Positions 49 through 10,197 of a stretch of 10,197 bases of DNA are shown here, one piece after another. The notes below the pieces were generated by a model. That model saw only the letters and a program-made list of their open reading frames with translations, searched no databases and was not told where the DNA came from. Position 1 is the stretch's first letter. Each line of letters begins with the position of its first letter. Made by a program: the position numbers and the translations under genes. Source of the DNA: a virus; UHGV virus genome UHGV-0383075; one strand, 5' to 3'.

Positions 49-1422
49 ATGGATTTTTCTCATATTTCTTCGTACCTATCCTCTGATTCTCGAAGTGGCT
101 GGCGTGAAAAGCTACTTGAAGCATCATTTCGAGGTGTGCCGTTTAAGGTTGAAGAAGAAAGTGCGGGAACCGGTCGCCGTGTGGAAACACATGAATACCC
201 GAACCGCGACAAGCCCTATACCGAAGATCTGGGAAAAGTCACTTTCCGCCCGTCCATCACAGCTTATGTGGTGGGAGATGACTGCTTTGACCAGCGCGAT
301 CGCCTGATTGACGCGCTGAATAAACCCGGTCCCGGCACGCTTGTCCACCCGACATATGGTGAGCTGAAAGTCTGTGTTGACGGGGAAGTTCGGGTCAGCA
401 CATCGAAAAGTGAAGGGCGTATTGTCCGCTTTGACCTGAAGTTTGTCGAAGCAGGAGAACTCTCTTACCCCACATCAGGTGCGGCGACGGCGCAGACGCT
501 GATGTCATCCTGTTCTGCACTGGATGACTGCATCAGTGACAGCTTCAGCGGTTTCAGTATCGATGGTGTGGCGGATTTCGTGCAGAACGACGTTATCGGT
601 AATGCCAGCATAATGCTGGGGTATGTTTCTGATGCGATGAAAGTGGTGGATTCTGCCGTATCGGATGCCGCCAGGCTGTTGCAGGGGGATATCTCGGTAC
701 TTCTGCCGCCGCCATCGTCAGGCAAAAATTTCGTTGAGCAGGTGCAGAAAATGTGGCGTACCGGGAAACGCCTTTATGGTAACACCAGCGACCTGGTCAC
801 CATGATCAAAACGCTTTCCGGTGTCAGCCTCGGCAGCGATCTGCAACCGCGCGGCGTCTGGAAAACGGACAGTAAAACCACCGCCACGGCGACGCAGCAG
901 CGTAACGTGGTTGCCAGCACCCTTCGTACGACCGCAATCAGCGAAGCGGCGTATGCCGTCACCCTATTGCCTGCGCCAACAACTTCCGCGGTGATGCAGA
1001 ATGCCGCAGTGGGGCCGTCAACAACACCCGCGCAGAGCACCGGCTGGCCTTCCGTCACGCATCCGGCACTGGACAATGCACCAGCGGTGAAAAACACGGT
1101 TGATCTGCCAACGTGGGAAGAACTGACTGACATTCGCGACACACTGAATACGGCAATTGATAAGGAGTTGTCCCGTACAACCAGTGATGCGCTGTTTCTG
1201 GCGCTGCGCCGGGTGAAAGCAGATCTGAATGCGGATATCAACACGCGCCTTGAACAGTCTGCACGGATCATTCAGCGCACACCGGATGAGGTTTTACCCG
1301 CGCTGGTGCTGGCGGCGACCTGGTTTGATAACGCGGCGCGTGACGCGGACATTATCCGGCGTAATGCCATTACGCATCCCGGCTTTGTGCCGGTGATCCC
1401 TCTGAAGGTGCCAGTGCAATGA
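49..1422 (+). CDS. Mu gp43 (N)-like tail protein, DNA circulation protein family
   Basis: 457-aa ORF with GAGGTG RBS 5 nt upstream of the ATG. The N-terminal pattern ASFRGVPF.V...GRRVETHEYPNRDKPYTEDLGK matches my recollection of the DNA-circulation N-terminal domain of Mu N. It sits immediately before a gp44-like gene as in Mu, and its stop overlaps the next start (ATGA). Confidence 0.65.
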   Translation: MDFSHISSYLSSDSRSGWREKLLEASFRGVPFKVEEESAGTGRRVETHEYPNRDKPYTEDLGKVTFRPSITAYVVGDDCFDQRDRLIDALNKPGPGTLVHPTYGELKVCVDGEVRVSTSKSEGRIVRFDLKFVEAGELSYPTSGAATAQTLMSSCSALDDCISDSFSGFSIDGVADFVQNDVIGNASIMLGYVSDAMKVVDSAVSDAARLLQGDISVLLPPPSSGKNFVEQVQKMWRTGKRLYGNTSDLVTMIKTLSGVSLGSDLQPRGVWKTDSKTTATATQQRNVVASTLRTTAISEAAYAVTLLPAPTTSAVMQNAAVGPSTTPAQSTGWPSVTHPALDNAPAVKNTVDLPTWEELTDIRDTLNTAIDKELSRTTSDALFLALRRVKADLNADINTRLEQSARIIQRTPDEVLPALVLAATWFDNAARDADIIRRNAITHPGFVPVIPLKVPVQ

Positions 1423-2498
1423 ACGATAACGTCACGCTACGGGTAAATGGCCGGGAGTGGAATGGCTGGACATCGGTGCGCATCGGTGCCGGTATTGAAC
1501 GGCTGGCGCGGGATTTCAGTGTGGAGATCACCCGCCAGTGGCCGGGAGATGAGGGTATCACCACGCTTCAGCCGCGCATTAAAAACGGTTCAAAAGTGGA
1601 AGTGCTGATTGGTGATGAGCTGGTGATCACCGGCTGGGTGGAGGCGACTCCCGTTCGTTACGATGCCCGTTCGGTCAGCACCGGTATTGCCGGACGCAGT
1701 CTGACCGCTGACCTGATTGATTGTGCAGCCGAACCGACACAGTTTAACGGACGATCGCTGGTACAGATTGCGCAGGCGCTTGCTGCGCCTTTCGGCATTG
1801 AGGTGGTGAACAGCGGTGCGCCGTCGGGTGTTATTCCTGATGTCCAGCCTGATCACGGTGAAACGGTGATCGAGGTGATCAACAAAATACTCGGTCAGCA
1901 GCAGGCACTGGCTTACGACGATCCGCACGGCAGGCTGGTGATTGGCGGTATTGGCTCAACGCGGGCACATACCGCGCTGGTACTTGGGGAAAACATCCTT
2001 TCCTGCGATACGGAGAAGAGTATCCGGGAGCGGTTTTCAGTTTACCAGGTGGCGGGGCAGTGTGCCGGAAACGACGATGATTTCGGTGAGGCCACCACCA
2101 CCGCGCTGCGGGCCCGCACAGAGGACGCATTTATTGCCCGTTACCGTCCGATGTATATCAGGCAGACAGGGCAGGCTACGGGGGCAGGCTGTATTGCCCG
2201 TGCTGACTTTGAAGCCCGACAACGGGCGGCGCGGACGGATGAAACCACCTATGTGGTGCAGGGCTGGCGACAGGGTAACGGTACGCTGTGGCAGCCCAAC
2301 CAGCGGGTGATTGTCTTCGATCCGGTCTGTGGTTTCGACAATACCGAACTGCTTGTCTCGGAAGTCACGTTTACTCAGGACCAGAACGGCACCCTGACGG
2401 AAATCCGTGTCGGCCCGCCTGATGCTTATCTGCCTGAACCCGAAGCCCCCGGCGCGCGGAAAAAGAAAAAAGCCAGAGTACAGGAGGACCCGTTCTGA
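1419..2498 (+). CDS. Mu gp44 (P)-like baseplate hub protein (phage late control D / gpD-like family)
   Basis: 359-aa ORF in the Mu-order position after the gp43-like gene. Start overlaps the upstream stop (ATGA) and its stop overlaps the next start (TGATG). Size and position fit the baseplate hub; family assignment is by synteny and size rather than an explicit motif. Confidence 0.55.
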   Translation: MNDNVTLRVNGREWNGWTSVRIGAGIERLARDFSVEITRQWPGDEGITTLQPRIKNGSKVEVLIGDELVITGWVEATPVRYDARSVSTGIAGRSLTADLIDCAAEPTQFNGRSLVQIAQALAAPFGIEVVNSGAPSGVIPDVQPDHGETVIEVINKILGQQQALAYDDPHGRLVIGGIGSTRAHTALVLGENILSCDTEKSIRERFSVYQVAGQCAGNDDDFGEATTTALRARTEDAFIARYRPMYIRQTGQATGAGCIARADFEARQRAARTDETTYVVQGWRQGNGTLWQPNQRVIVFDPVCGFDNTELLVSEVTFTQDQNGTLTEIRVGPPDAYLPEPEAPGARKKKKARVQEDPF

Positions 2499-3046
2499 TG
2501 AGTACGATTGAAGCCATGCAGCGACAACTCCTCGGCCTGATTGGGCGGGCAGTGGTGAAAAGCATCAGTGCCGCCACGAAATGTCAGACCGTGGATGTGT
2601 CCCTGATTGCCGGTGAACCCAAAGCCGGGGTTGAACATCTTGAACCCTACGGTTTTACCGCAAGGGCAAACAGCGGTGCGGAAGCGGTGGTGTTGTTTCC
2701 GGATGGCGACCGTTCTCATGCGGTGGTTGTTACGGTGTCGGACCGGCGCTACCGCCTGAAAGGGCTGCAGACGGGTGAGGTGGCTGTCTATGACGATCAG
2801 GGGCAGTCCGTGACGCTGACCCGGGAGGGGATCGTGGTGGACGGTGCTGGTAAAACGATCACGTTTCGCAATTCACCTAAAGCACGTTTTGAAATGGACC
2901 TGGAAGTGACAGGACAGGTGAAAGACCTGTGCGACTCCGGCGGCACCACCATGTCAGCGATGCGGCTTGCCTATAACGGGCATCGTCACAGAGAGAACGG
3001 TCAGGGCAGTAACACCGACAAACCTGATAAAGCGATGGAGGCATGA
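2498..3046 (+). CDS. Mu gp45-like baseplate assembly / spike protein (gpV-like)
   Basis: 182-aa ORF, translationally coupled on both sides (TGATG upstream, ATGATGG downstream). Size and position match Mu gp45; assigned by synteny. Confidence 0.5.
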   Translation: MSTIEAMQRQLLGLIGRAVVKSISAATKCQTVDVSLIAGEPKAGVEHLEPYGFTARANSGAEAVVLFPDGDRSHAVVVTVSDRRYRLKGLQTGEVAVYDDQGQSVTLTREGIVVDGAGKTITFRNSPKARFEMDLEVTGQVKDLCDSGGTTMSAMRLAYNGHRHRENGQGSNTDKPDKAMEA

Positions 3047-3471
3047 TGGAACTGTGGCTGACGGTGAACGGTAAACGCACCTGCGCCAGCGCACCGCTGG
3101 ATCCGCTGACCCGCGCCGTGGTGATTTCCCTGTTTACCTGGCGGCGGGCGGAGCCTGATGACAATGCCGACGTCCCGATGGGATGGTGGGGGGATACCTG
3201 GCCTGCGGTACAGAATGACCGTTACGGCTCCCGACTGTGGCTGCTTCAGCGCAGCAAACTGACCAATCAGCTGGTGCAGACGGTAAGGGGGTATATCCGC
3301 GAATGCCTGCAATGGATGATTGATGACGGCGTGGTGTCCCGTATTGATCTGGATATCCGCCGCACCGGGATTAATGAACTGGGTAACAGTATCACTCTCT
3401 GGCGTCGTGACGGACCGGTAATGATTTCTTTTGATGATCTGTGGAGTGCGATAACGCATGGCGGACAGTGA
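3043..3471 (+). CDS. Mu gp46-like baseplate protein (GP46 family)
   Basis: 142-aa ORF between the gp45-like and J-like genes, overlapping both neighbours. Size and position are as for Mu gp46. Confidence 0.5.
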   Translation: MMELWLTVNGKRTCASAPLDPLTRAVVISLFTWRRAEPDDNADVPMGWWGDTWPAVQNDRYGSRLWLLQRSKLTNQLVQTVRGYIRECLQWMIDDGVVSRIDLDIRRTGINELGNSITLWRRDGPVMISFDDLWSAITHGGQ

Positions 3472-4516
3472 ATTTCAGCGCCCGACGCTGGCAGAAAATA
3501 TCAGTATGCTCCGTAACGATTTATTCGCCAGGCTGGACGTCAGCGACACGCTCCGGCGCATGGATGAAGACGTGCGGGCAAAGGTGTATGCGGCGGCGCT
3601 GCATACGGTTTACGGTTACATCGATTATCTGGCAATGAACATGCTGCCTGACCTGTGCGATGAGTCCTGGCTGGCGCGACATGCTGCGATGAAACGGTGT
3701 CCGCGCAAGGGGGCCACGGCTGCCAGCGGGTATATGCGCTGGGAAGGTGTCAGCGATGGCCTGAAGGTGACCGCCGGGAGTGTTATTCAGCGCGATGACC
3801 TGGTTCAGTACACGGCAACTGCTGATGCAACCAGCTCCGGTGGTGTCCTGCGCGTGCCGATCGCCTGCTCAAGTGCAGGCGCGGTCGGTAACGCTGACGA
3901 CGGTACGGCATTAATCCTGGTCACGCCGGTGAATGGTCTGCCGTCTTCCGGTGTTGCAGATACCCTGACTGGCGGATTCGATACTGAAGATCTGGAAACG
4001 TGGCGCGCCCGCGTCATTGAGCGGTATTACTGGACGCCTCAGGGCGGGGCTGATGGGGACTATGTTGTCTGGGCTAAAGAAGTGCCCGGCATTACCCGTG
4101 CATGGACATACCGCCACTGGATGGGAACGGGGACTGTCGGTGTGATGATTGCCGGCAGTGACCTGATTAATCCCATTCCGGAAGAATCAACGGAAACGGC
4201 AGCAAGACAACATATCGGGCCACTGGCCCCGGTGGCAGGCTCTGATTTGTATGTATTCAGGCCGGTGGCACATACGGTGGATTTTCATATCCGCGTGACG
4301 CCGGACACACCAGAAATACGGGCTGCCATTACCGCGGAGTTGCGTTCGTTCCTGCTGCGTGATGGTTATCCGCAGGGAGAACTGAAGGTGTCACGTATCA
4401 GTGAAGCGATTTCCGGTGCGAACGGGGAATACAGCCATCAGTTGCTTGCACCGGCAGACAATATCTCCATTGCAAAAAATGAACTGGCGGTACTGGGGAC
4501 GATTTCATGGACGTGA
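3458..4516 (+). CDS. Baseplate J-like protein (Mu gp47-like)
   Basis: 352-aa ORF, typical length for Baseplate_J proteins, located between gp46-like and gp48-like genes and overlapping the downstream gene by 10 nt. Confidence 0.6.
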
Positions 4517-5091
4517 CAAACGATGATTACATCCGTCTGTTGTCGGCACTGTTGCCCCCCGGTCCGGCGTGGTCAGCCAGCGATCCGTCGATTGCCGGTG
4601 CGGCACCGTCATTAACCCGCGTTCATCAGCGTGCGGATGCCCTGATGCGGGAGCTGGATCCGCGCACCACCACCGAACTGATAAATCGCTGGGAGCGTCT
4701 GTGCGGCCTGCCGGATGAATGTATTCCCGCTGGGACACAGACCCTTCGCCAGCGTCAGCAACGGCTGGATGCGAAGGTTAACCTGGCGGGTGGCATCAAC
4801 GAGGATTTTTATCTTGCACAGCTTGCTGCCCTGGGCAGACCAGATGCCACCATCACGCGATACGACAAAAGCACCTTCACCTGCTCATCGGCCTGTACTG
4901 ACGCTGTGAACGCGCCGGAATGGCGGTATTACTGGCAGGTCAACATGCCAGCCGCCGCCAACACCACCTGGATGACATGTGGCGACCCCTGCGATTCCGC
5001 ACTGCGTATCTGGGGGGACACCGTTGTCGAATGTGTGCTTAACAAACTCTGCCCGTCGCATACCTACGTAATTTTTAAATATCCGGAGTAA
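4507..5091 (+). CDS. Mu gp48-like / YmfQ-like tail protein (DUF2313-type)
   Basis: 194-aa ORF, the same length as E. coli e14 YmfQ as I recall it, positioned immediately upstream of the tail fiber gene as in Mu-type tail modules. Confidence 0.55.
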
Positions 5092-5094
5092 TCC

Positions 5095-6141
5095 ATGCAT
5101 CGTATAGACACGAAAACCGCGCAGAAGGATAAGTTCGGCGCTGGTAAGAACGGTTTTACCCGTGGTAACCCCCAGACCGGCACGCCTGCCACCGATCTGG
5201 ATGATGACTACTTTGACATGTTGCAGGAAGAGCTTTGTGGCGTTGTTGAGGCATCCGGTGCCAGTCTGGAGAAGGCGCGGCACGACCAGCTGCTTACCGC
5301 ACTTCGTGCGCTGCTGTTAAGCCGCAAGAATCCGTTTGGCGATATCAAATCGGATGGCACTGTGCAAACGGCTCTCGAAAACCTTCAATTGCGAGAATCA
5401 TTCACAGGTGTGGTTGGTCAGGCCGTTAACCAGAAAATGAGCGTGGCAATAGCGTCGGCATCAGCAACATTCACCGCTGACCAGGTTATTGTTGGTGAGT
5501 CATTATCTGGCAAGCAGTACCGTGTAAGTTCGGTAAGCGAAACTATCAACCTCACCACGACTGGGGCGGGCGGGATGGATACAGGAGCAGCCCCTGCCAG
5601 TGGTTGGGTTGCTATTTACCTTATTTACAACCCAACGACCAACACCTCAGCATTACTTGGTGTTAACACGACAACCGTCGTTGCGCCTACAGTCTACGGC
5701 GGTGCAAACATGCCAGCGGGATATACGGCGAGCGCACTCGTATCCGTCTGGAGAACAACAAGCGGCTCTTTGCTTCTGAATGGGTACCAGCGAGGTCGAA
5801 AATTTTGCATCCCGCGTGTAGATGTACTGACCACAAGCAGTAACCCAGGACCATACTCACCAATCCCTCTTAGCGCAGCCGTACCGCTAAACGCTATAGC
5901 AGCGAGTGGTTACGCATTCTGTAACTCAGGCTCTGGTTCTGGGTTTGCGGTTTTGTCTGTCGGGTCTGATGCAAATGGGCTTGGGTATTTTCAGGTGTAT
6001 GCCGGGCTGGTTGGTTCGCTAGGGAGCGATATCTATTTTGAGAATACCCTCGCTGAACCTCAAAAACTTTACTACACGTTTACCTGGACAACGCCAGCAG
6101 TGTCAAATGCCACCATTGGGATAAGCGGTTATACGATCTAA
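5095..6141 (+). CDS. Tail fiber protein (Mu S-like conserved N-terminal region with divergent distal region)
   Basis: 348-aa ORF starting 3 nt after the gp48-like stop. The C-terminal two thirds are rich in Gly/Ser/Thr/Asn/Ala as in fiber distal domains. Base composition changes from GC-rich to AT-rich at about nt 5330-5350. Confidence 0.6.
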
Positions 6142-6148
6142 GGAGTGA

Positions 6149-6337
6149 ATGATGTCTGTTGTATATGTGCAGTTCTCGGATGAAAAAGAAACAGAAATCG
6201 TCTCTGTTTTTGCATCTCCAGCCGACCCGGATTACTACCATTTTCTTGGTGAAGTTGATGAATCTGATGAGAGATTGACAAACTTTTGGAAGCAATTCCC
6301 TCAGCATGGATTAGGATCTGGATCCTCCACGCCCTGA
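6149..6337 (+). CDS. Small hypothetical protein downstream of tail fiber (possible fiber chaperone remnant or cargo gene)
   Basis: 62-aa ORF (61 aa from the ATG at 6152) with a strong AGGAG RBS at 6141-6145. It is acidic, AT-rich, and sits where a tail fiber assembly gene would be expected, but it is too short and I do not recognise it as a Tfa protein. Confidence 0.35.
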   Translation: MMSVVYVQFSDEKETEIVSVFASPADPDYYHFLGEVDESDERLTNFWKQFPQHGLGSGSSTP

Positions 6338-6370
6338 ATGGGGCGCACTGGATAAAAAGTTTCCGGTCGG

Positions 6371-6416
6371 AGATAAATGAAACCGCAGCCACGTCGTATG
6401 CAAGAACGTGCTGCGG
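6371..6416 (-). terminator. Candidate terminator hairpin downstream of the dinI-like gene
   Basis: Imperfect stem CCGCAGCCACGT (6383-6394) / ACGTGCTGCGG (6406-6416) with an 11-nt loop. On the minus strand it is followed by a T-rich run (complement of 6371-6382, TTTCATTTATCT). The plus-strand tail is weak (TTGG). Confidence 0.3.
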
Positions 6417-6484
6417 TTGGCTGGTGAACTTCCGATAGTGCGAGTATTGAATGATTTCCAGCCGTTACCGATTTTACGTGTTAA

Positions 6485-6733
6485 TTAGTGAACAAACCAC
6501 TCGTCAGCAGATTCCCAGGTATCTTTCAGAGTCTCCTGAACAAAAGTTTTTGCAGAATCCTTATCTGCGGTGCGTGTAACAGAAAGGCCATCGTTGCTGG
6601 TGGCTTTTACGATCACCTCTACATCGTCATAACGTTTACTGATGCGTCGGGTTAATTCTTCCTTTAACGCATCCACAGCACCGGTTGGCATTTTAGTCAT
6701 TTTTTCTTTGGCTATGCAGATTTCAATACGCAT
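6485..6733 (-). CDS. dinI: DinI-family DNA damage-inducible protein
   Basis: 82-aa ORF beginning MRIE.CIAK...GA.DAL..EL.RRI and ending [16 protein letters not shown], which closely parallels E. coli DinI (about 81 aa) as I recall it. GAGGGA RBS 5 nt upstream of the ATG, with LexA boxes directly upstream. Confidence 0.85.
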
Positions 6734-6746
6734 AAAAGTCCCTCTA

Positions 6747-6766
6747 TACTGTGTTTGTATACAGTA
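6747..6766 (-). promoter_or_regulatory. LexA box 1 (SOS operator)
   Basis: TACTGT-GTTTGTAT-ACAGTA, a perfect CTGT-N8-ACAG palindrome with TA flanks as in the E. coli LexA consensus, sited between the candidate -10 and the RBS of the dinI-like gene. Confidence 0.75.
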
Positions 6767-6768
6767 TT

Positions 6769-6798
6769 ATTTTTAACTGTATGGATAAACAGTGTCAA
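6769..6798 (-). promoter_or_regulatory. Candidate sigma70 promoter of the dinI-like gene
   Basis: On the minus strand there is a consensus -35 TTGACA (complement of 6793-6798, overlapping the int stop codon), a 17-18 nt spacer containing LexA box 2, then an A/T-rich -10 (TAAAAA/AAAAAT, about 6769-6775), followed directly by LexA box 1. Confidence 0.45.
6776..6795 (-). promoter_or_regulatory. LexA box 2 (SOS operator) abutting the int stop codon
   Basis: AACTGT-ATGGATAA-ACAGTG, again CTGT-N8-ACAG, 9 bp from box 1. It lies in the spacer of the candidate dinI promoter. Confidence 0.55.
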
Positions 6799-7892
6799 GA
6801 GGTCTTATTTCTGCTCCTTTGGAGCTCTTCAAAACGATTATGTAAAGATTTCGGATACAGTTCGGTATATACCTGCCATAGCACGTTTAATGAACGATGC
6901 CCTGTAACCTGGGCGACTTCCTCAATACTAAAACCAGCCTCAAATAAGCGACTTGCCCCTTCTCTACGCAAATCATGGTATCGCAGATCTTTAATACCTA
7001 ATTTGCTTCTTACCCTCTGGAATCCCGCAGTAACAGAAGTGCTGTTATATGGAAAAATGAATTCTGATTTTTTGGGTTGTCGTTGGACGATATCCCAGGC
7101 TTCCCCAAGCAAGGCTACTTTCATATGGTTGCCTTCCTTTTTACGTGGATCTTTCCTGTCTCTTACGAGTATGGATTTTTGTTCCTGATCGAGATCCTCC
7201 CATCGTAATCGGCATACTTCACCGATTCGCATACATGACCACACAGAAAATTTGAGGATATCAACGAACGGAATTTTTGAGCATTTATGTGTAGATCGTT
7301 GTTGAAGACCTTCAATGAGCATGTCCAGTTCATCAGATGCCGGTCTACGATTACGACGATTTGATTTACCAATTAAACCAAGTTTAAGTAGATATGGACG
7401 AGCGGCTTTTGCTGGGTTTGATGTGTAATTAATTCCATATACAGGTTTGGCAGCATCCAGAACACTGCCAAGATAACTAACATCGTGGCTAACTGTAGCT
7501 GGACCTGCACCAGCGTTGTTTCTTAGCCTGCAATGTTCAATTACGTCATTTTCTGTCAGTTCAGATAGTTTGATCGCGGAGATGTCACTATCCATAAGCA
7601 GTTCCAGCACATATCTTTTAGTACGGCCTGCTTTACCTCCGGCATTTGGGTCATTTAAATATTTGTGTAGTAAGTCACGGACTGTAAGTCCGTCAACTGC
7701 ATTTGATGATGGAATGCCATATAGATCTAATTCCATCACTTTCTGTGTGCCCCATGTTTTGGCATGAGCATGTTTAGGGAATGTTTTGCTTTCCCTGTAA
7801 GTGATAACACCTTTTTCTTTGATAATCACATTACAGCGATAGCGTGGTGTGCCATCGGATTTTAGTCGTTTCTCTATGTTATAGTACGCCAT
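6795..7892 (-). CDS. int: Tyrosine-type site-specific integrase with N-terminal arm-type DNA-binding domain
   Basis: 365-aa ORF with GAGG RBS 7 nt upstream of the ATG. C-terminal catalytic signatures are present: ...RIGEVCRLRWEDLD..., ...LRYHDLRREGASRL..., ...GHRSLNVLWQVYTELY. The N-terminal stretch IEKRLKSDGTPRYRCNVIIKEKGV..SKTFPKHAHAKTWGTQ resembles the arm-binding domain of phage and island integrases. Confidence 0.85.
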   Translation of the reverse strand: MAYYNIEKRLKSDGTPRYRCNVIIKEKGVITYRESKTFPKHAHAKTWGTQKVMELDLYGIPSSNAVDGLTVRDLLHKYLNDPNAGGKAGRTKRYVLELLMDSDISAIKLSELTENDVIEHCRLRNNAGAGPATVSHDVSYLGSVLDAAKPVYGINYTSNPAKAARPYLLKLGLIGKSNRRNRRPASDELDMLIEGLQQRSTHKCSKIPFVDILKFSVWSCMRIGEVCRLRWEDLDQEQKSILVRDRKDPRKKEGNHMKVALLGEAWDIVQRQPKKSEFIFPYNSTSVTAGFQRVRSKLGIKDLRYHDLRREGASRLFEAGFSIEEVAQVTGHRSLNVLWQVYTELYPKSLHNRFEELQRSRNKTS

Positions 7893-7911
7893 TACACGAC
7901 CTCGTTATTTC

Positions 7912-7948
7912 GGGTTCCCATAAAACGTGGGAACCTGTGCGGGAACCT
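7912..7948. repeat. GGGAACC repeat cluster A: 8-bp inverted repeat plus a direct copy, 20-55 bp upstream of the int start
   Basis: GGTTCCCA (7913-7920), 7-bp spacer TAAAACG, TGGGAACC (7928-7935), then a further direct copy GGGAACCT at 7941-7948. Confidence 0.6.
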
Positions 7949-8125
7949 AACGCGAGAAAAATAGCCTGAAATGTTCAAAAATGCACGATAATCATGAAGC
8001 ACAAAAAATTAATCAAACCAGCGTGATGCCTGAAAAAACTGGTGTTTACTGGAATTCTCGGTTTAGCATTGCTCCTATGCTCGATAGGATGTACCGTTTT
8101 TTAAAAACAACTAGTTATACACTTT

Positions 8126-8147
8126 GTGGGAGCCTATTGGGAACCTG
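8126..8147. repeat. GGGAACC repeat cluster B: two direct copies
   Basis: GGGAGCCT (8128-8135) and GGGAACCT (8139-8146). The 10-mer TGGGAACCTG at 8138-8147 is identical to 7928-7937 in cluster A. I did not see this motif elsewhere in the window. Confidence 0.55.
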
Positions 8148-8160
8148 AAGTTTTGCTCTT

Positions 8161-8180
8161 TCTATTCATATCTATTCATA
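8161..8180. repeat. Perfect 10-bp tandem direct repeat TCTATTCATA x2
   Basis: Exact duplication at 8161-8170 and 8171-8180, about 25 bp upstream of the candidate -35 of the toxin operon. Confidence 0.6.
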
Positions 8181-8204
8181 AAGCACCATTTGCTGCCTTA
8201 TCTG

Positions 8205-8266
8205 ATTGACCAAAAACAACCGCGGTTATAGACTTTGCTCCAAATAGCTAAGGCTATTGCTTAGTA
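8205..8266 (+). promoter_or_regulatory. Candidate promoter and operator-like imperfect palindrome for the 8288-9278 operon
   Basis: -35 TTGACC (8205-8210), 18-nt spacer, -10 TAGACT (8229-8234). Downstream is an imperfect inverted repeat TAgCTAAG (8245-8252) / CTTAGTA (8260-8266), then GAGG RBS (8279-8282) 5 nt before the ATG at 8288. Confidence 0.3.
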
Positions 8267-8287
8267 AGTAAAACAGTTGAGGTTGCC

Positions 8288-8827
8288 ATGAATCCGTTTA
8301 ACGCCATTACTTTTGCTGCATTGTGCGGGCCTCTGGCTTGTCCTGCTGCTATGGCGCAGGAGTTCATCATCCAGCCAGCCCCTGTGATTGCTAAACCTTT
8401 TGAGTACTCTCCTTCTGTTGAGGAATTCTCACGCAGAATGGAAGAGGGTAAGGAGATCTTGCAAAAGTTAACAATTGCAGCAGATGACTACTATATCTGT
8501 TTGATTGATCTTAATAGCCAAGATGCTCGCGAGTTTGTTTCCAAAAACGGGACAGATACGACAGAGGCATGCGAAATGTTCCTGCGTGCTTTTGAAGAAG
8601 AAGTGAAGCGTACAATTGAATCGCCTCTGCCTGAATTTATCAGGTCAGAACTGAAGGTTTACTGGCGTCATATTGCTAAAGCTCGCTCATCTGTCACTCG
8701 CCTTAACAATTACATAAAGAGCATATTTAAAGAAACTGTTACGTTTAGCGGGCGCGCGGATCTTGCTGGAATTGCAGCACTAGCTAGTCACACATCAAAT
8801 AAGCTAAAATCGATGCAATTTCACTAA
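8288..8827 (+). CDS. Hypothetical 179-aa protein, first gene of a two-gene operon with a YafO-like toxin (candidate non-canonical antitoxin or partner)
   Basis: ORF with GAGG RBS and a stop 16 nt before the next start. It has a hydrophobic N-terminus (MNPFNAITFAALCGPLACPAAMA) lacking the basic n-region of a typical signal peptide, then an acidic, probably helical body. I recognise no family, and it is about twice the size of Phd/YefM/YafN-type antitoxins. Confidence 0.5.
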   Translation: MNPFNAITFAALCGPLACPAAMAQEFIIQPAPVIAKPFEYSPSVEEFSRRMEEGKEILQKLTIAADDYYICLIDLNSQDAREFVSKNGTDTTEACEMFLRAFEEEVKRTIESPLPEFIRSELKVYWRHIAKARSSVTRLNNYIKSIFKETVTFSGRADLAGIAALASHTSNKLKSMQFH

Positions 8828-8843
8828 CCGATAGCGGACGACC

Positions 8844-9278
8844 ATGCATCTAGAAGTCTCTATTAATCCAGAAACTAGAGCTGAATTTTTTGATGAAGTT
8901 TTTCTCAAATTCCCGGAGCTAGAGTCTTCTATCATTGATGATTTCAAGAGATACAAAGCAACCGGTGAGCTTCCGCATTATTTCGGTAGGGACGTTGCGT
9001 ATACTCAGCCCTATGGTGCTTTTCGGGCTGGGTTGATGCATATCCATCTTTGTCTACCGCCAAACAAGTTTCCCGAGAAACTTCCACAACCGGATAGGGT
9101 CTGCAAGAAAGGTGATCCTGATAATGATGCTTGTCTTGTGTATGTCCAAGGTGAGCTTTATGAGAATAAATATTCACTCATTGCTATTATGTATCCCGAT
9201 GCACATGAAAAAGCAAGAAAACATGATGTGATGAGCTATCTGGCGCGAATTGCCCAGAATTATAAAGATGAAAACTAA
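8844..9278 (+). CDS. YafO-family toxin homolog (putative ribosome-dependent mRNA interferase)
   Basis: 144-aa ORF. Segments DFKRYKATGELPHYFGRDVAY, MHIHLCLPPNKFPEKL and ACLVYVQGELYENKYSLIAIMYPDAHEKARKHDVM align by eye with E. coli YafO (DFISYKRDGVLPDTFGRD, VAHIHLANENNPFPPQL, AHLVYCQGAFDEQAWLLIAILKPEPHKLARDNNQM, recalled from memory). An intrinsic terminator follows directly. Confidence 0.6.
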   Translation: MHLEVSINPETRAEFFDEVFLKFPELESSIIDDFKRYKATGELPHYFGRDVAYTQPYGAFRAGLMHIHLCLPPNKFPEKLPQPDRVCKKGDPDNDACLVYVQGELYENKYSLIAIMYPDAHEKARKHDVMSYLARIAQNYKDEN

Positions 9279-9298
9279 CCCGCCGAAGCGGGTTTTTT
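9277..9298. terminator. Bidirectional intrinsic terminator between convergent operons
   Basis: Hairpin AACCCGC-CGAA-GCGGGTT (9277-9294) followed by TTTTTT on the plus strand. The minus-strand side is also T-rich downstream (complement of 9260-9276). It lies between the YafO-like stop (9276-9278) and the PrtN-like stop (9305-9307). Confidence 0.7.
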
Positions 9299-9304
9299 GT
9301 GAGA

Positions 9305-9577
9305 TTAGTTATTTATTTTCCTATTTGTTCTTACCCTCTCCCATTCAATTCTGCCTTCTTCACGCCGTTTATCTATATATTCAGCAAGATCCTGAATGTT
9401 GATGCAGCGCTTTGCTTTCTGTGATGTACCAACACGATAAGTCGGGATCGGCAATTGGCATGCATTTGCTTTCGCTTCTGCTGTGTTAGGGCTCATACCG
9501 AAATACTTTTGGCATACAGCTGACAGCTCAATGTTTGGGGTATTGAATTCAGCCATCAGTAAAAACAAGGTGTTCAT
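9305..9577 (-). CDS. PrtN-family (pyocin activator-like) DNA-binding protein; possible excisionase or early regulator
   Basis: N-terminus MNTLFLLMAEF...VCQKYFG...LPIPTYRVGTSQKAKRCINIQDLAEYIDKRREEG matches the PrtN-family pattern (MNT.FLLMAQ...VC..YF...LP.P..R...SQKA....LQDLA.YID.RR) as I recall it. I prefer the ATG at 9577 (GGAG RBS 6 nt upstream) over the GTG at 9604 listed in the ORF track. Confidence 0.6.
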   Translation of the reverse strand: MNTLFLLMAEFNTPNIELSAVCQKYFGMSPNTAEAKANACQLPIPTYRVGTSQKAKRCINIQDLAEYIDKRREEGRIEWERVRTNRKINN

Positions 9578-9613
9578 AATTTTCTCCATCAAAACCGGCT
9601 GCACCCGGGAAAA

Positions 9614-10186
9614 TCATAATTCTGTGCTGGTGGCAGGAATTAGTTTCTGCCAGATAGCGGAAACATATTTTGCCTGATGACGGGCATCAGCCAGGGCGTT
9701 GTGCCGTTCGCCATCGAAAGGCATGTCCATTTTTGGGTCGAATCCGATGGAACGCCCAAGCGTAACGATCGTGCGTACATCGTGGTCATTCCAGTACGCC
9801 CACGGGCAGATTTGTCCTGCTCGCTCGTAAGCTCCACGTAAAATTACGTTGTCGAAGGTGGCCCCGTTACCCCAGACTTTTAAATATTTTGTATTGTCTG
9901 CATGCTGATTAATGAAATGGCTCAGTTCAGAGAGTGCATCGCTGATCGACAAAGTATCATCAATACAGATTGCAGCTCGTGCTTCAGAGCTCTGTTTCAA
10001 CCACCACAGGATGGTATCGCCGTCAGGTGTAGCTCCTTGCTTCATAGCACTGTCCAGGCTAACAACCGTATAGAATTCTTGTCCGATGTCTCCGGTTTCT
10101 GGAGTGAAGAACACCGCGCCAATGGAAACGATCGGTGCATCCTTATTTTTCCCCATCGTCTCAAGGTCGATCATTAAGTTGTTCAT
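9614..10186 (-). CDS. DEDDh-type 3'-5' exonuclease (DnaQ-like fold), phage early-region exonuclease
   Basis: Exo I motif MIDLETMG (D-x-E), Exo II region VWGNGATFDNVIL, Exo III motif HNALADARH. GAGGTG RBS at 10192-10197. The ATG at 10186 is the likely start; the track's 10189 is a GTG one codon upstream. Confidence 0.65.
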   Translation of the reverse strand: MNNLMIDLETMGKNKDAPIVSIGAVFFTPETGDIGQEFYTVVSLDSAMKQGATPDGDTILWWLKQSSEARAAICIDDTLSISDALSELSHFINQHADNTKYLKVWGNGATFDNVILRGAYERAGQICPWAYWNDHDVRTIVTLGRSIGFDPKMDMPFDGERHNALADARHQAKYVSAIWQKLIPATSTEL

Positions 10187-10197
10187 CACTTCACCTC

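What the first reader, a model, noticed from the sequence alone, without database searches (positions are those of the whole stretch)
6140..6800. Sharp compositional boundary and unusual gene order: tail fiber end directly adjacent to the dinI-int cargo, with no tail fiber assembly gene or invertase
By eye, GC content drops from roughly 55-60 percent in the tail genes to roughly 35-45 percent from about 6150 onward. In e14- and Mu-type tail modules the fiber is normally followed by a tail fiber assembly gene and often an invertible segment with a Pin/Gin invertase, and none is recognisable here. The int gene reads leftward toward the tail module. That fits either a circular phage map (tail, cargo, int, early genes) or the junction of two separately acquired elements. 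Either way 6150-6480 is a likely recombination scar.
Basis: partly seen in the sequence, partly recalled or inferred. Interest (0 to 1): 0.5.

Follow-up and report, generated by a model that had tools for sequence, protein, structure and literature searches.

The report
Fixed tail-fibre cassette replacing invertible segment
This is the end of the tail-gene block of an ordinary mosaic E. coli temperate phage, where a switchable host-range segment and its invertase were replaced by a single fixed fibre tip plus a 62-residue gene that looks like a cut-down tail-fibre chaperone.

Summary
The GC step is real: 57.2% in the Mu-type baseplate genes, 50.9% in the distal fibre part and about 43% from ORF62 onward, with the best change-point at 6028. 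The same step occurs in relatives, so it is a module boundary, not a special event.

The window is an SfV/SKA5-like phage that integrates into dusA, caught in its excised form. attP lies at about 8069-8084, to the right of int. The tail, dinI, int order is therefore one circular phage map, not two elements.

Close relatives carry an invertible segment (two fibre tips, two Tfa genes) and a Pin invertase between the same flanks. Here they are replaced by a BcepMu-gp52-type fibre tip and ORF62.

Three scars remain:
- Half of a pix-type crossover site at 5372-5397; homology to relatives stops at its central TT.
- The last 11 codons of pin at 6346-6380.
- 37 unassigned bases at 6309-6345.

"No assembly gene" is only partly right. 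ORF62 belongs to a family that sits directly downstream of this fibre type. In longer members it is the N-terminal domain fused to Caudo_TAP, Phage_tail_APC or DUF4376 chaperone domains.

Overall this is ordinary mosaicism, plus a testable annotation for an uncharacterised small protein family.

The parts
49..5091 (+). Mu-type tail/baseplate genes (gp43/DNA circulation, gp44, gp45, gp46, gp47, gp48/YmfQ homologues); the high-GC module (57.2%)
   Evidence: ORFs. Pfam Phage_Mu_Gp48. 97-98% DNA identity to SfV, SfII, SfIV and SKA5 up to 5385. GC.
5095..6141 (+). Tail fibre gene (348 aa). The constant baseplate-attachment part is 5095-5385. The variable distal, receptor-binding part is 5386-6141.
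   Evidence: PHROG tail fibre families: the N-terminal part matches phrog_1396 and the distal part matches phrog_11518 positions 571-811 of 812. The distal part is 41-59% identical to fibres of BcepMu gp52, Yersinia YeP1-3, and Burkholderia, Ralstonia and Pseudomonas phages. AF2 gives pLDDT >90 for aa ~110-348, all beta.
5372..5397 (+). Degenerate pix/gix-type 26-bp crossover site: CTCTCGAAAACC TT CAATTGCGAGAA. The left half and central TT are identical to the functional-looking site of SKA5. The right half matches 8 of 12.
   Evidence: Alignment. Homology to SKA5, CX12, AR0055, SfV and others stops at 5385, the central TT. The SKA5 site is one arm of a 20-nt inverted repeat bounding a 1.8-kb segment next to its invertase. 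The window has no consensus match at <=3 mismatches and no inverted partner.
6149..6337 (+). ORF62: a stand-alone homologue of the N-terminal (fibre-specific) domain of modular Tfa-type tail-fibre chaperones. The core is residues 1-52. The tail after residue 53 is junction-derived and variable.
   Evidence: phrog_20339, E 4.5e-15. 191 clusters in the family. Found directly downstream of the homologous fibre domain in 9 of 12 phage loci and in every enterobacterial locus fetched that shows the gene upstream of it (L002, L005, L007, L008, L013, L015-L017). Fused to DUF4376, Caudo_TAP or Phage_tail_APC in longer members. In L026 the fusion protein follows a full-length homologue of this fibre. 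AF2 predicts beta-beta-beta-alpha with pLDDT 88-93 over residues 1-50.
6309..6345 (.). Junction filler of unassigned origin. It supplies the last 9 codons and the stop of ORF62.
   Evidence: Homology to argW-type prophages (L002, L016, L017) ends at 6305-6308. Homology to pin-carrying relatives starts at 6346-6349. No similarity to pin alleles above shuffled controls. The same 37 nt occur in L005-L008, L014 and L015.
6346..6380 (+). Fossil 3' end of a Pin-family serine invertase gene (reads ..ALDKKFPVGDK-stop; relatives read ..TLYKKFPVGDK-stop)
   Evidence: Alignment. The 97% homology block to CX12 starts 35 nt inside its annotated recombinase pseudogene. tblastn gives 82-90% identity over the last 10-11 residues and nothing else of Pin.
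6381..6418 (.). Strong hairpin (AACCGCAGCCACG...CGTGCTGCGGTT) between the late operon and dinI. It is a likely transcription terminator: T-rich tail on the minus strand, and the 3' hairpin of the CssrB model on the plus strand.
   Evidence: Fold gives -34.8 kcal/mol over 6370-6484, z = -2.8. Partial Rfam CssrB match limited to this hairpin, 28.7 bits against a gathering score of 76. Conserved in all dinI-carrying relatives.
6485..6733 (-). dinI (DinI-like RecA-filament modulator), an SOS-controlled accessory gene
   Evidence: Pfam DinI, E 1.1e-19. phrog_189. LexA boxes upstream.
6747..6794 (.). Two LexA-box-like sites upstream of dinI: 6747-6766 is a perfect TACTGT-N8-ACAGTA; 6775-6794 has 2 mismatches.
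6795..7892 (-). Tyrosine integrase of the dusA-targeting type
   Evidence: Pfam Phage_integrase, E 1.1e-20. 97% identical relatives lie directly next to dusA in E. coli CX12.
7981..8084 (+). Phage-borne copy of the 5' end of dusA, ending at the attP core (about 8069-8084)
   Evidence: The translation matches the DusA N-terminus and diverges at 8084. Prophage-derived phage records end at 8083/8084 or begin at 8069/8083.

Best explanation
What the interval is: 6140-6800 is the right-hand end of the late (tail) operon of an SfV/SKA5-like temperate myophage of E. coli that integrates into dusA. The phage is seen in its excised, circular-map configuration.

The GC drop: it is the standing boundary between three modules with different histories. 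These are the Mu-type tail genes (57%), the exchangeable fibre-tip cassette (about 50%) and the lambdoid accessory/integration genes dinI-int (about 43%). Relatives show the same boundary.

What changed in this lineage: in most relatives the space between the constant part of the fibre gene and dinI holds a Pin-type invertible host-range switch. That switch has two alternative fibre tips, two Tfa chaperone genes, two inverted 26-bp crossover sites and the pin invertase. Here it has been replaced by a fixed, single-specificity cassette: a fibre tip of the BcepMu-gp52 type (two predicted beta-sandwich domains) plus a 62-codon gene.

What is shown directly: the replacement left one crossover site whose outer half and core are intact but whose inner half has decayed (5372-5397). 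It also left the last 11 codons of pin (6346-6380) and 37 bases of unknown origin (6309-6345).

What is inferred:
- ORF62 is the fibre-specific partner of this tip. It corresponds to the variable, fibre-binding N-terminal domain of modular Tfa chaperones, without their conserved C-terminal trimerisation domain. It probably binds the distal head of each fibre chain to help it fold or to cap it.
- The most recent event was an illegitimate join between the 3' end of ORF62 and the 3' end of pin. The cassette came from an argW-type SfV-like phage in which an acyltransferase follows it. The pin end belonged to a dusA-type phage.
- The resulting block (5381-6477), scar included, has since moved into at least one unrelated myovirus backbone.
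For: Module boundary:
- GC and GC3 values and the change-point. The same pattern appears in SKA5, YeP1 and L017.

One phage, circular map:
- SKA5 is collinear except for the cassette. CX12 carries the prophage in dusA. The dusA mimic and record ends fall at 8069-8084.

Switch in relatives:
- SKA5 has fibre, tfa, tfa', fibre-tip' and DNA invertase, bounded by a 20-nt inverted repeat 1803 nt apart. pinE or recombinase genes lie next to dinI in many E. coli genomes.

Scars:
-.

Not an assembly artefact:
- A separate 1316-bp assembly is 100% identical across 5439-6754.
- Several E. coli assemblies share 5381-6477 at 89-95%.

Cassette origin:
- L016 and L017 are 96.6-97.5% identical to window 118-6308 and then continue into acyltransferase, int and yfdC.

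ORF62:
- phrog_20339. 191 clusters at E <= 0.001. Of the best 150, 111 are 49-88 aa and 36 are 109-208 aa with the domain at the N-terminus.
- Among those 36: 10 Phage_tail_APC, 9 Caudo_TAP and 6 DUF4376 C-terminal domains, located at residues about 50 to the end.
- The Ralstonia phage Hyacinthe protein is ORF62-domain plus DUF4376, downstream of a homologous fibre.
- In L026 a full-length fibre homologue (38% identity, E 4e-63) is followed 10 nt later by an ORF62-domain plus Caudo_TAP protein.
- Synteny holds in 9 of 12 phage loci.

Literature:
- Tfa chaperones consist of a variable N-terminal fibre-binding domain plus a conserved C-terminal oligomerisation domain. DUF4376 is that C-terminal domain (PMC7882524, PMC9608196, PMC7289586).
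Against: - No experiment bears on ORF62.
- It lacks the conserved C-terminal domain that current models hold responsible for trimerising the fibre.
- Three of 12 phage loci with a related fibre domain show no detectable ORF62 homologue.
- The pix-site coincidence at 5385 may only reflect a protein domain boundary where functional chimeras are selected, not invertase action.
- The direction and order of the exchange events are inferred from shared breakpoints, not dated.
- The origin of 6309-6345 is unknown.
Confidence: 0.75

Rival explanations
1. ORF62 is not a chaperone. It is either an inert leftover of a two-domain Tfa that lost its C-terminal domain, or a small protein with an unrelated role such as a lysogeny or exclusion factor. 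On this reading the fibre tip folds on its own or with host chaperones.
For: - No Caudo_TAP, DUF4376 or Phage_tail_APC domain in ORF62.
- No structural match to solved chaperones.
- The fibre distal region is predicted with very high confidence as a monomer of globular beta-sandwiches. This would fit a head that needs less help to trimerise.
- 3 of 12 related phage loci lack a detectable homologue.
- The C-terminal tail of ORF62 differs between contexts, so part of it is junction-derived.
Against: - The short form is the majority state of a family of 191 clusters, with a conserved about 50-residue core (V7, F9, F21, D40 and R42 are nearly invariant) in hosts from Burkholderia to Escherichia. 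A decaying fragment would not show this.
- It stays directly downstream of the homologous fibre domain across very different phage backbones.
- Its domain is fused to three different Tfa-type C-terminal domains.
Confidence: 0.25
2. The boundary is the junction of two separately acquired elements lying side by side: a tail-module remnant next to an independent dinI-int island.
For: - The sharp GC difference.
- int reads towards the tail genes.
- The dinI-int block is also found in siphoviral lambdoid phages such as mEp460, cdtI and Stx phages.
- The fibre cassette also occurs in other contexts without dinI.
Against: - SKA5, a sequenced phage genome, has the same tail, dinI, int and early-gene order.
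- Integrated relatives have dusA immediately beyond int, so tail genes and int belong to one prophage.
- The window itself continues across attP into xis, exo and other early genes.
- There is no host DNA or att site between fibre and dinI.
Confidence: 0.04
3. The odd junction at 6309-6380 is an assembly chimera.
For: - No complete E. coli RefSeq genome holds the whole 4500-8300 arrangement.
- Exact-pattern scans of the viral and metagenome collections found no further copy.
Against: - A separate Logan assembly contig is 100% identical over 5439-6754, spanning the junction.
- Independent NCBI E. coli assemblies carry ORF62 contiguous with 6309-6477.
Confidence: 0.02

Closest known systems
Escherichia phage SKA5 (OR670062) and dusA-integrated SfV-like prophages of E. 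coli (for example strain CX12)
   Same: 97-98% DNA identity over window 118-5385 and 6379-8147. Same order: baseplate genes, fibre, dinI, int, dusA mimic, early genes.
   Different: They carry about 2.9 kb between the fibre constant part and dinI: variable fibre tip, tfa, tfa', alternative tip and a DNA invertase. The window has a different tip plus ORF62 in 0.96 kb, and only 35 nt of the invertase.
Din-family invertible host-range switches (e14 P region/Pin, Mu G segment/Gin, P1 C segment/Cin)
   Same: The constant/variable joint of the fibre gene lies at a 26-bp crossover site. The window keeps the outer half-site and the central TT. The invertase gene once lay just upstream of dinI.
   Different: No invertase, no second site, no alternative tip, no Caudo_TAP gene. 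The system is locked to one specificity. The site consensus used for the scan is from my own knowledge of hix/gix/cix/pix sites.
Modular Tfa-type intermolecular fibre chaperones (TfaMu/gpU, lambda Tfa, Pam3 gp25, Alteromonas V22 gp27, Campylobacter CJIE1 DUF4376 protein)
   Same: The gene lies immediately downstream of the fibre. The ORF62 domain occupies the position of the variable, fibre-binding N-terminal domain and is found fused to Caudo_TAP, Phage_tail_APC or DUF4376 C-domains in relatives. It is predicted to be a small, mainly beta domain, as reported for the N-domains of TfaMu and gp25 (PMC9608196).
   Different: ORF62 has no C-terminal helical or oligomerisation domain at all. There is no detectable sequence or fold similarity to solved Tfa N-domains.
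Burkholderia phage BcepMu gp52 fibre with downstream acyltransferase gp53; Yersinia phages YeP1-3; argW/yfdC-integrated SfV-like prophages of E. coli (L016, L017)
   Same: Homologous distal fibre domain (45-47% identity in BcepMu and YeP1, 94-99% in L017 and L016), followed at once by an ORF62-family gene.
   Different: In those phages an O-antigen-type acyltransferase follows on the opposite strand or next in line. The window lacks it, and ORF62 runs into the pin fossil instead.
dusA-specific integrase elements (PMC4482086)
   Same: The integrase lies next to an attP that carries a replacement dusA 5' end. Relatives are inserted at the 5' end of dusA.
   Different: None of note. This part is a typical member.

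Membership tests
Din-family invertible fibre switch (Pin/Gin/Cin type) | Serine DNA invertase gene adjacent to the segment | tested here: not met
   Only the last 11 codons survive at 6346-6380. No other Pin similarity anywhere in the window. No resolvase-type Pfam hit among the window ORFs scanned.
Din-family invertible fibre switch (Pin/Gin/Cin type) | Two 26-bp crossover sites in inverted orientation bounding the variable segment | tested here: not met
   One site at 5372-5397 with 4 mismatches to the consensus. No match at <=3 mismatches and no inverted repeat in 5000-6500. SKA5 has the pair.
Din-family invertible fibre switch (Pin/Gin/Cin type) | Alternative fibre C-termini and Tfa genes on the opposite strand | tested here: not met
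   tblastn with SKA5 Tfa, Tfa' and the alternative tip gives only chance-level hits.
Tfa-type tail fibre assembly chaperone (Pfam Caudo_TAP / Phage_tail_APC / DUF4376) | Conserved C-terminal assembly/oligomerisation domain | tested here: not met
   ORF62 has no Pfam or NCBIfam hit. It is 62 aa, and the family core ends at about residue 52.
Tfa-type tail fibre assembly chaperone (Pfam Caudo_TAP / Phage_tail_APC / DUF4376) | Gene immediately downstream of the fibre gene, co-varying with the fibre's distal domain | tested here: met
   7-nt gap after the fibre stop. An ORF62-family gene lies directly downstream of the homologous fibre domain in 9 of 12 phage loci and in every enterobacterial locus fetched that shows the upstream gene (L002, L005, L007, L008, L013, L015-L017).
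Tfa-type tail fibre assembly chaperone (Pfam Caudo_TAP / Phage_tail_APC / DUF4376) | N-terminal domain homologous to that of proteins carrying a bona fide Tfa C-domain | tested here: met
   36 longer family members carry the ORF62 domain at residues 1-~50. Among them are 10 Phage_tail_APC, 9 Caudo_TAP and 6 DUF4376 C-domains, many above the Pfam cut-offs. See also Hyacinthe and L026.
Tfa-type tail fibre assembly chaperone (Pfam Caudo_TAP / Phage_tail_APC / DUF4376) | Physical binding to the fibre tip, and requirement for fibre folding | not testable with these tools
   Needs co-expression, pull-down or a multimer structure prediction. Only single-chain prediction was available.
SfV-like temperate myophage (Mu-type tail, lambdoid early region) | Mu gp43-gp48 homologues in order, followed by the fibre | tested here: met
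   ORF map. Phage_Mu_Gp48. 97-98% identity to SfV, SfI, SfII and SfIV over 118-5385. Gp45, GP46 and Baseplate_J Pfam labels on the near-identical L016 genes.
dusA-targeting integrase element | Tyrosine integrase next to an attP with a dusA 5' mimic; relatives inserted at the dusA 5' end | tested here: met
   family described in PMC4482086
DinI family | DinI domain; SOS (LexA) control | tested here: met
   PF06183, E 1.1e-19. A perfect LexA-box consensus at 6747-6766 and a second site at 6775-6794. Regulation itself was not tested.

The most novel reading that the evidence does not exclude
ORF62 represents a widespread, so far unannotated class of single-domain tail-fibre chaperones or tip caps (phrog_20339; 191 clusters at 50% identity in phages of Escherichia, Yersinia, Burkholderia, Ralstonia and Pseudomonas). 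They would consist only of the fibre-binding N-domain of a Tfa protein and would work without the C-terminal trimerisation domain that current models treat as the active part. A bolder add-on is that the recurrent joints at the crossover-site core reflect invertase-mediated swapping of whole tip-plus-chaperone cassettes between unrelated phages.
Probability: 0.45. Interest if true: 0.45.

Novelty: new variant of a known kind. Interest (0 to 1): 0.3.

Why it matters
For the question asked, the answer is mostly deflationary. The GC step and the tail, dinI, int order are normal features of a mosaic temperate phage, and the missing genes were lost through a traceable cassette replacement.

Two things are of practical use:
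- The exact breakpoints (5385, 6308/6309, 6345/6346) show that a switchable two-specificity host-range system can be converted into a fixed one. They also show that the new block, scar included, then spreads to other phage backbones. This bears on predicting host range from prophage sequence.
- A 50-60-residue protein family currently labelled 'unknown function', and left unannotated in BcepMu, gets a specific testable role as the partner of one fibre-tip type. Anyone expressing such fibres for diagnostics, engineered pyocins or host-range engineering would need to co-express it, since missing chaperones are a common cause of failure.

Tried and rejected
- I searched 6338-6484 and the whole window for degraded Tfa, alternative fibre tip or invertase using the SKA5, CX12 and AR0055 proteins. 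Only the last 10-11 residues of Pin were found.
- I aligned the 37-nt filler 6309-6345 to three pin alleles on both strands. Scores equalled shuffled controls, so its origin remains unknown. An apparent match to the 'EQWAQAG' region of pin that I noticed by eye was rejected on this test.
- Exact-pattern scans for the junction in viral contigs, and for junction plus dinI in metagenome contigs, found nothing.
- Foldseek of the fibre model against the PDB gave only weak beta-sandwich, CBM-like and toxin-domain hits (TM normalised by query <= 0.21). A weak Pfam G7C_C hit (E 0.006, below cut-off) was not pursued. 'Glycan-binding head' is therefore only a suggestion.
- I had suspected that PGAP's 'stfP pseudogene' label in strain 720632 was an annotation artefact. 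The ORF list shows the gene is really broken there.
- dN/dS on close ORF62 relatives was abandoned because there are too few substitutions.
- The Rfam CssrB hit at 6358-6415 covers only a terminal hairpin and is far below the gathering score. Relatives give no hit at gathering threshold.

Full report
**Observation**

The composition claim holds.
- GC is 57.2% over the baseplate genes (49-5091) and 54.6% in the constant part of the fibre gene (5095-5385).
- It is 50.9% in the variable part (5386-6141), 42.9% in the next ORF (6149-6337), 43.4% in dinI, 41.7% in int and 43.1% over 6149-10197.
- GC3 falls from 0.58-0.65 to 0.33-0.41.
- A two-segment likelihood fit places the best single change-point at 6028. 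Positions within 2 lnL units span 5887-6061, and the gain over a uniform model is 88.8 lnL units.

The gene-order claim also holds as worded. After the fibre stop at 6141 there is a 62-codon ORF, 147 non-coding bases, then dinI and int on the minus strand. Pfam finds no Caudo_TAP gene and no invertase ORF, and neither does tblastn with the corresponding proteins of the closest phage.

**What the window is**

- Positions 118-5385 are 97-98% identical to the Mu-type tail/baseplate block of Shigella phages SfV, SfI, SfII and SfIV and of Escherichia phage SKA5.
- From 6379 onward the window is again 98% identical to SKA5 (dinI, int, a short 'tRNA-dihydrouridine' ORF), and it matches SKA5 again over 9325-10197 (part of xis and the exonuclease gene, 92%).
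- In E. coli CX12 the same dinI-int block lies directly next to dusA.
- The window carries an ORF (7981-8148) whose first ~35 residues are those of DusA and which diverges at 8084.
- Phage records derived from prophages end at 8083/8084 or begin at 8069/8083.
- The window therefore crosses attP (about 8069-8084). It represents one phage in its excised, circular-map form, with a dusA-type integrase of the kind described in PMC4482086.

**The GC step is not specific to this window**

SKA5 goes from 57.5% (tail genes) to 47-50% (variable fibre and tfa genes) to 43-44% (pin, dinI, int). YeP1 and the argW-type prophage L017 behave likewise. The step is a standing boundary between modules with different histories. 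It is not the mark of the event that removed the invertase.

**What normally sits here**

Between the same flanks SKA5 has a variable fibre tip, tfa, an oppositely oriented tfa' and alternative tip, and a DNA invertase. A 20-nt inverted repeat, 1803 nt apart, bounds the segment. This is a typical Pin/Gin-type host-range switch. Many E. coli genomes have pinE or a recombinase remnant next to the same dinI. None of 5,426 complete E. coli genomes contains the window's arrangement over 4500-8300. Only one, strain 720632, has the window's fibre tip, and there it is a decayed copy.

**Breakpoints and scars**

Left side:
- Homology to SKA5, CX12, AR0055 and the Shigella phages stops at 5385.
- That base is the second T of the central dinucleotide of a 26-bp crossover site.
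- SKA5 reads CTCTCGAAAACC-TT-GGTTTGGGAGAA. The window reads CTCTCGAAAACC-TT-CAATTGCGAGAA at 5372-5397.
- The outer half and core are intact. The inner half keeps 8 of 12 positions. There is no match to the site consensus at <=3 mismatches and no inverted partner.

Right side:
- Homology to pin-carrying relatives resumes at 6346-6349.
- In CX12 this is 35 nt inside the annotated recombinase pseudogene.
- The window reads ..ALDKKFPVGDK-stop where relatives read ..TLYKKFPVGDK-stop.
- The last 11 codons of pin therefore survive at 6346-6380.
- A strong hairpin follows at 6381-6418. It is conserved in all dinI-carrying relatives and probably acts as a terminator.

Between the two:
- Homology to argW-type prophages carrying the same fibre and small ORF ends at 6305-6308.
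- The 37 bases at 6309-6345 match nothing I could identify and resemble pin no better than shuffled sequence.

**The junction is not an artefact, and the block is mobile**

- A separate 1316-bp assembly is 100% identical over 5439-6754.
- Several E. coli draft genomes carry window 5320/5381-6477 at 91-95% identity. That block comprises the fibre tip, ORF62, the filler, the pin fossil and the hairpin.
- In those genomes the block sits in a different myovirus backbone (Pam3_gp18, Sheath_initiator, Baseplate_J and Phage_Wedge1 labels) next to torT, without dinI.
- Related copies lie in two further contexts.
- In argW/yfdC-integrated SfV-like prophages (L016, L017) the late region is 96.6-97.5% identical to the window up to 6308. 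It then continues into an acyltransferase and a different integrase.

The simplest history, which is inferred, is as follows. An argW-type cassette (fibre tip, small ORF, acyltransferase) was joined illegitimately, just after codon 53 of the small ORF, to the 3' end of pin in a dusA-type phage. The product is the window's arrangement, and the new block has since been passed on. The divergence of all cassette types at the crossover-site core is older. It may reflect invertase-site recombination, or only the protein's domain boundary.

**The small ORF**

- ORF62 matches phrog_20339, a family of unknown function (E 4.5e-15).
- An exhaustive profile search finds 191 clusters at E <= 0.001. Of the best 150, 111 are 49-88 aa, 36 are 109-208 aa with the match at their N-terminus, and 3 are long repetitive proteins that I regard as spurious.
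- The core is about 50 residues (consensus YVQFSD..E..I...F.SPQDP..Y.NLGEV...D.R...F), followed by variable tails.
- The window's copy has an intact core. Only its last nine residues come from the junction.
- tblastn shows the homologue directly downstream of the homologous fibre domain in BcepMu (where it is unannotated, between gp52 and gp53), in YeP1-3 and in Burkholderia and Ralstonia phages. The HMM scan below adds Paraburkholderia phage IPK and the Pseudomonas phages Orisa03 and PPpW-3.
- An HMM scan of all fetched loci finds it in 9 of 12 phage loci that have the fibre domain, and downstream of the fibre in every enterobacterial locus that shows the upstream gene (L002, L005, L007, L008, L013, L015-L017).
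- Among the 36 longer members there are 10 Phage_tail_APC, 9 Caudo_TAP and 6 DUF4376 hits. These always lie C-terminal to the ORF62-like domain, and many are above the Pfam cut-offs.
- In Ralstonia phage Hyacinthe the protein after the homologous fibre is ORF62-domain plus DUF4376.
- In metagenomic locus L026 a fibre homologous to the window's over its whole length (38% identity, E 4e-63) is followed 10 nt later by an ORF62-domain plus Caudo_TAP protein.

[quoted passage not shown] It identifies DUF4376 with that C-terminal domain (PMC7882524, PMC7289586, PMC9608196). ORF62 is therefore the stand-alone counterpart of the fibre-binding domain. AF2 predicts a compact beta-beta-beta-alpha unit with pLDDT 88-93 over residues 1-50 and a disordered tail. 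It has no significant match among solved structures.

**The fibre tip**

AF2 gives pLDDT >90 for residues ~110-348, all beta and organised as sandwiches. Foldseek returns only weak similarities to carbohydrate-binding modules and toxin receptor-binding domains. An O-antigen-type acyltransferase regularly accompanies this tip in BcepMu, Burkholderia phages, YeP1 and the argW-type prophages. Together these suggest, weakly, a glycan receptor.

**How it most likely works**

- Late transcription runs through the baseplate genes, the fibre and ORF62, and probably stops at the 6381-6418 hairpin.
- The fibre's conserved N-terminal ~97 residues attach it to the Mu-type baseplate. The distal beta-sandwich head recognises the receptor.
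- ORF62 binds that head during or after folding (inferred). With no invertase and only one decayed site, host range is fixed.
- dinI is a separate, leftward gene that is probably SOS-controlled. A perfect LexA box lies at 6747-6766 and a second site at 6775-6794.
- int follows, facing attP.

**Rivals**

- ORF62 may be inert or have another role (confidence 0.25). It lacks the domain thought to do the trimerising, and three related phages lack a detectable copy. Its conservation, synteny and repeated fusion to Tfa C-domains argue the other way.
- Two juxtaposed elements (0.04) and an assembly chimera (0.02) are contradicted by the data above.

**Novelty and verdict**

Mosaic SfV-like phages, exchange of fibre tips at the invertase crossover site, dusA integrases and DinI morons are all established. 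The first two points rest on my own knowledge of the SfV and Mu/P1/e14/p15B literature. The finding as posed is therefore ordinary and explained. What is new in a modest way has two parts. One is the precisely mapped conversion of an invertible switch into a fixed cassette that then spreads with its scar. The other is the assignment of an unannotated small-protein family to the fibre-binding half of Tfa chaperones. Interest 0.3; new variant of a known kind.

Noticed in passing
window 6747-6766 and 6775-6794: A perfect LexA-box consensus (TACTGTGTTTGTATACAGTA) and a second 2-mismatch box lie between the int stop and the dinI start. The phage dinI is therefore probably SOS-induced.
   Followed up: partly
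window 7981-8148 (attP core about 8069-8084): The phage carries a copy of the dusA 5' end that matches DusA for ~35 residues and diverges at 8084. Prophage-derived phage records start or end at 8069-8084. The window therefore spans attP and is the excised form.
   Followed up: yes
window 6358-6415: There is a partial match to the Rfam sRNA family CssrB (Shigella): 28.7 bits against a gathering score of 76. It is limited to the terminal hairpin; 129 model positions are missing. Relatives with intact pin give no hit at gathering threshold.
   Followed up: partly
L005-L008 (E. coli draft genomes), locus positions ~5172-6327; also L014, L015: A different myovirus prophage next to torT carries window 5320/5381-6477 at 89-95% identity. 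That block is the fibre tip, ORF62, the filler, the pin fossil and the hairpin. It has no dinI, and homology stops 8 nt before the dinI stop codon. L015 has the block (up to window 6494) upstream of an island with RadC, antirestriction and CbtA/CbeA genes.
   Followed up: partly
L009 (BcepMu) 2532-2732, between gp52 and gp53: BcepMu has an unannotated ORF62-family gene (MELLNVQFSDDTETSIISVF...; phrog_20339, E 2.6e-23) between its tail fibre and acyltransferase genes.
   Followed up: yes
L002, L016, L017, L009, L010, L011, L023, L025: This fibre tip and its small ORF are regularly followed by an Acyl_transf_3 (O-antigen acyltransferase-like) gene in Burkholderia, Yersinia and E. coli phages. 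Ralstonia phage Hyacinthe and phiE131 have a GDSL/SGNH hydrolase there instead. The window has lost this partner.
   Followed up: partly
window 8288-9278: A 179-aa protein with a hydrophobic N-terminus (phrog_8416, unknown function) is followed by a YafO-toxin-family protein (PF13957, E 1.9e-21). They lie just right of attP. Related phage records label the pair YafM/YafO.
   Followed up: no
L002 (E. coli 720632) 5716-6940: The only complete E. coli genome with this fibre tip holds a decayed copy. The fibre reading frame is broken into pieces, and an IS1 truncates the tail module upstream.
   Followed up: yes
window 9305-9604: The excisionase candidate belongs to the PrtN/pyocin-activator Pfam family (PF11112, E 4.4e-24) and to the PHROG excisionase family phrog_1300.
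   Followed up: no
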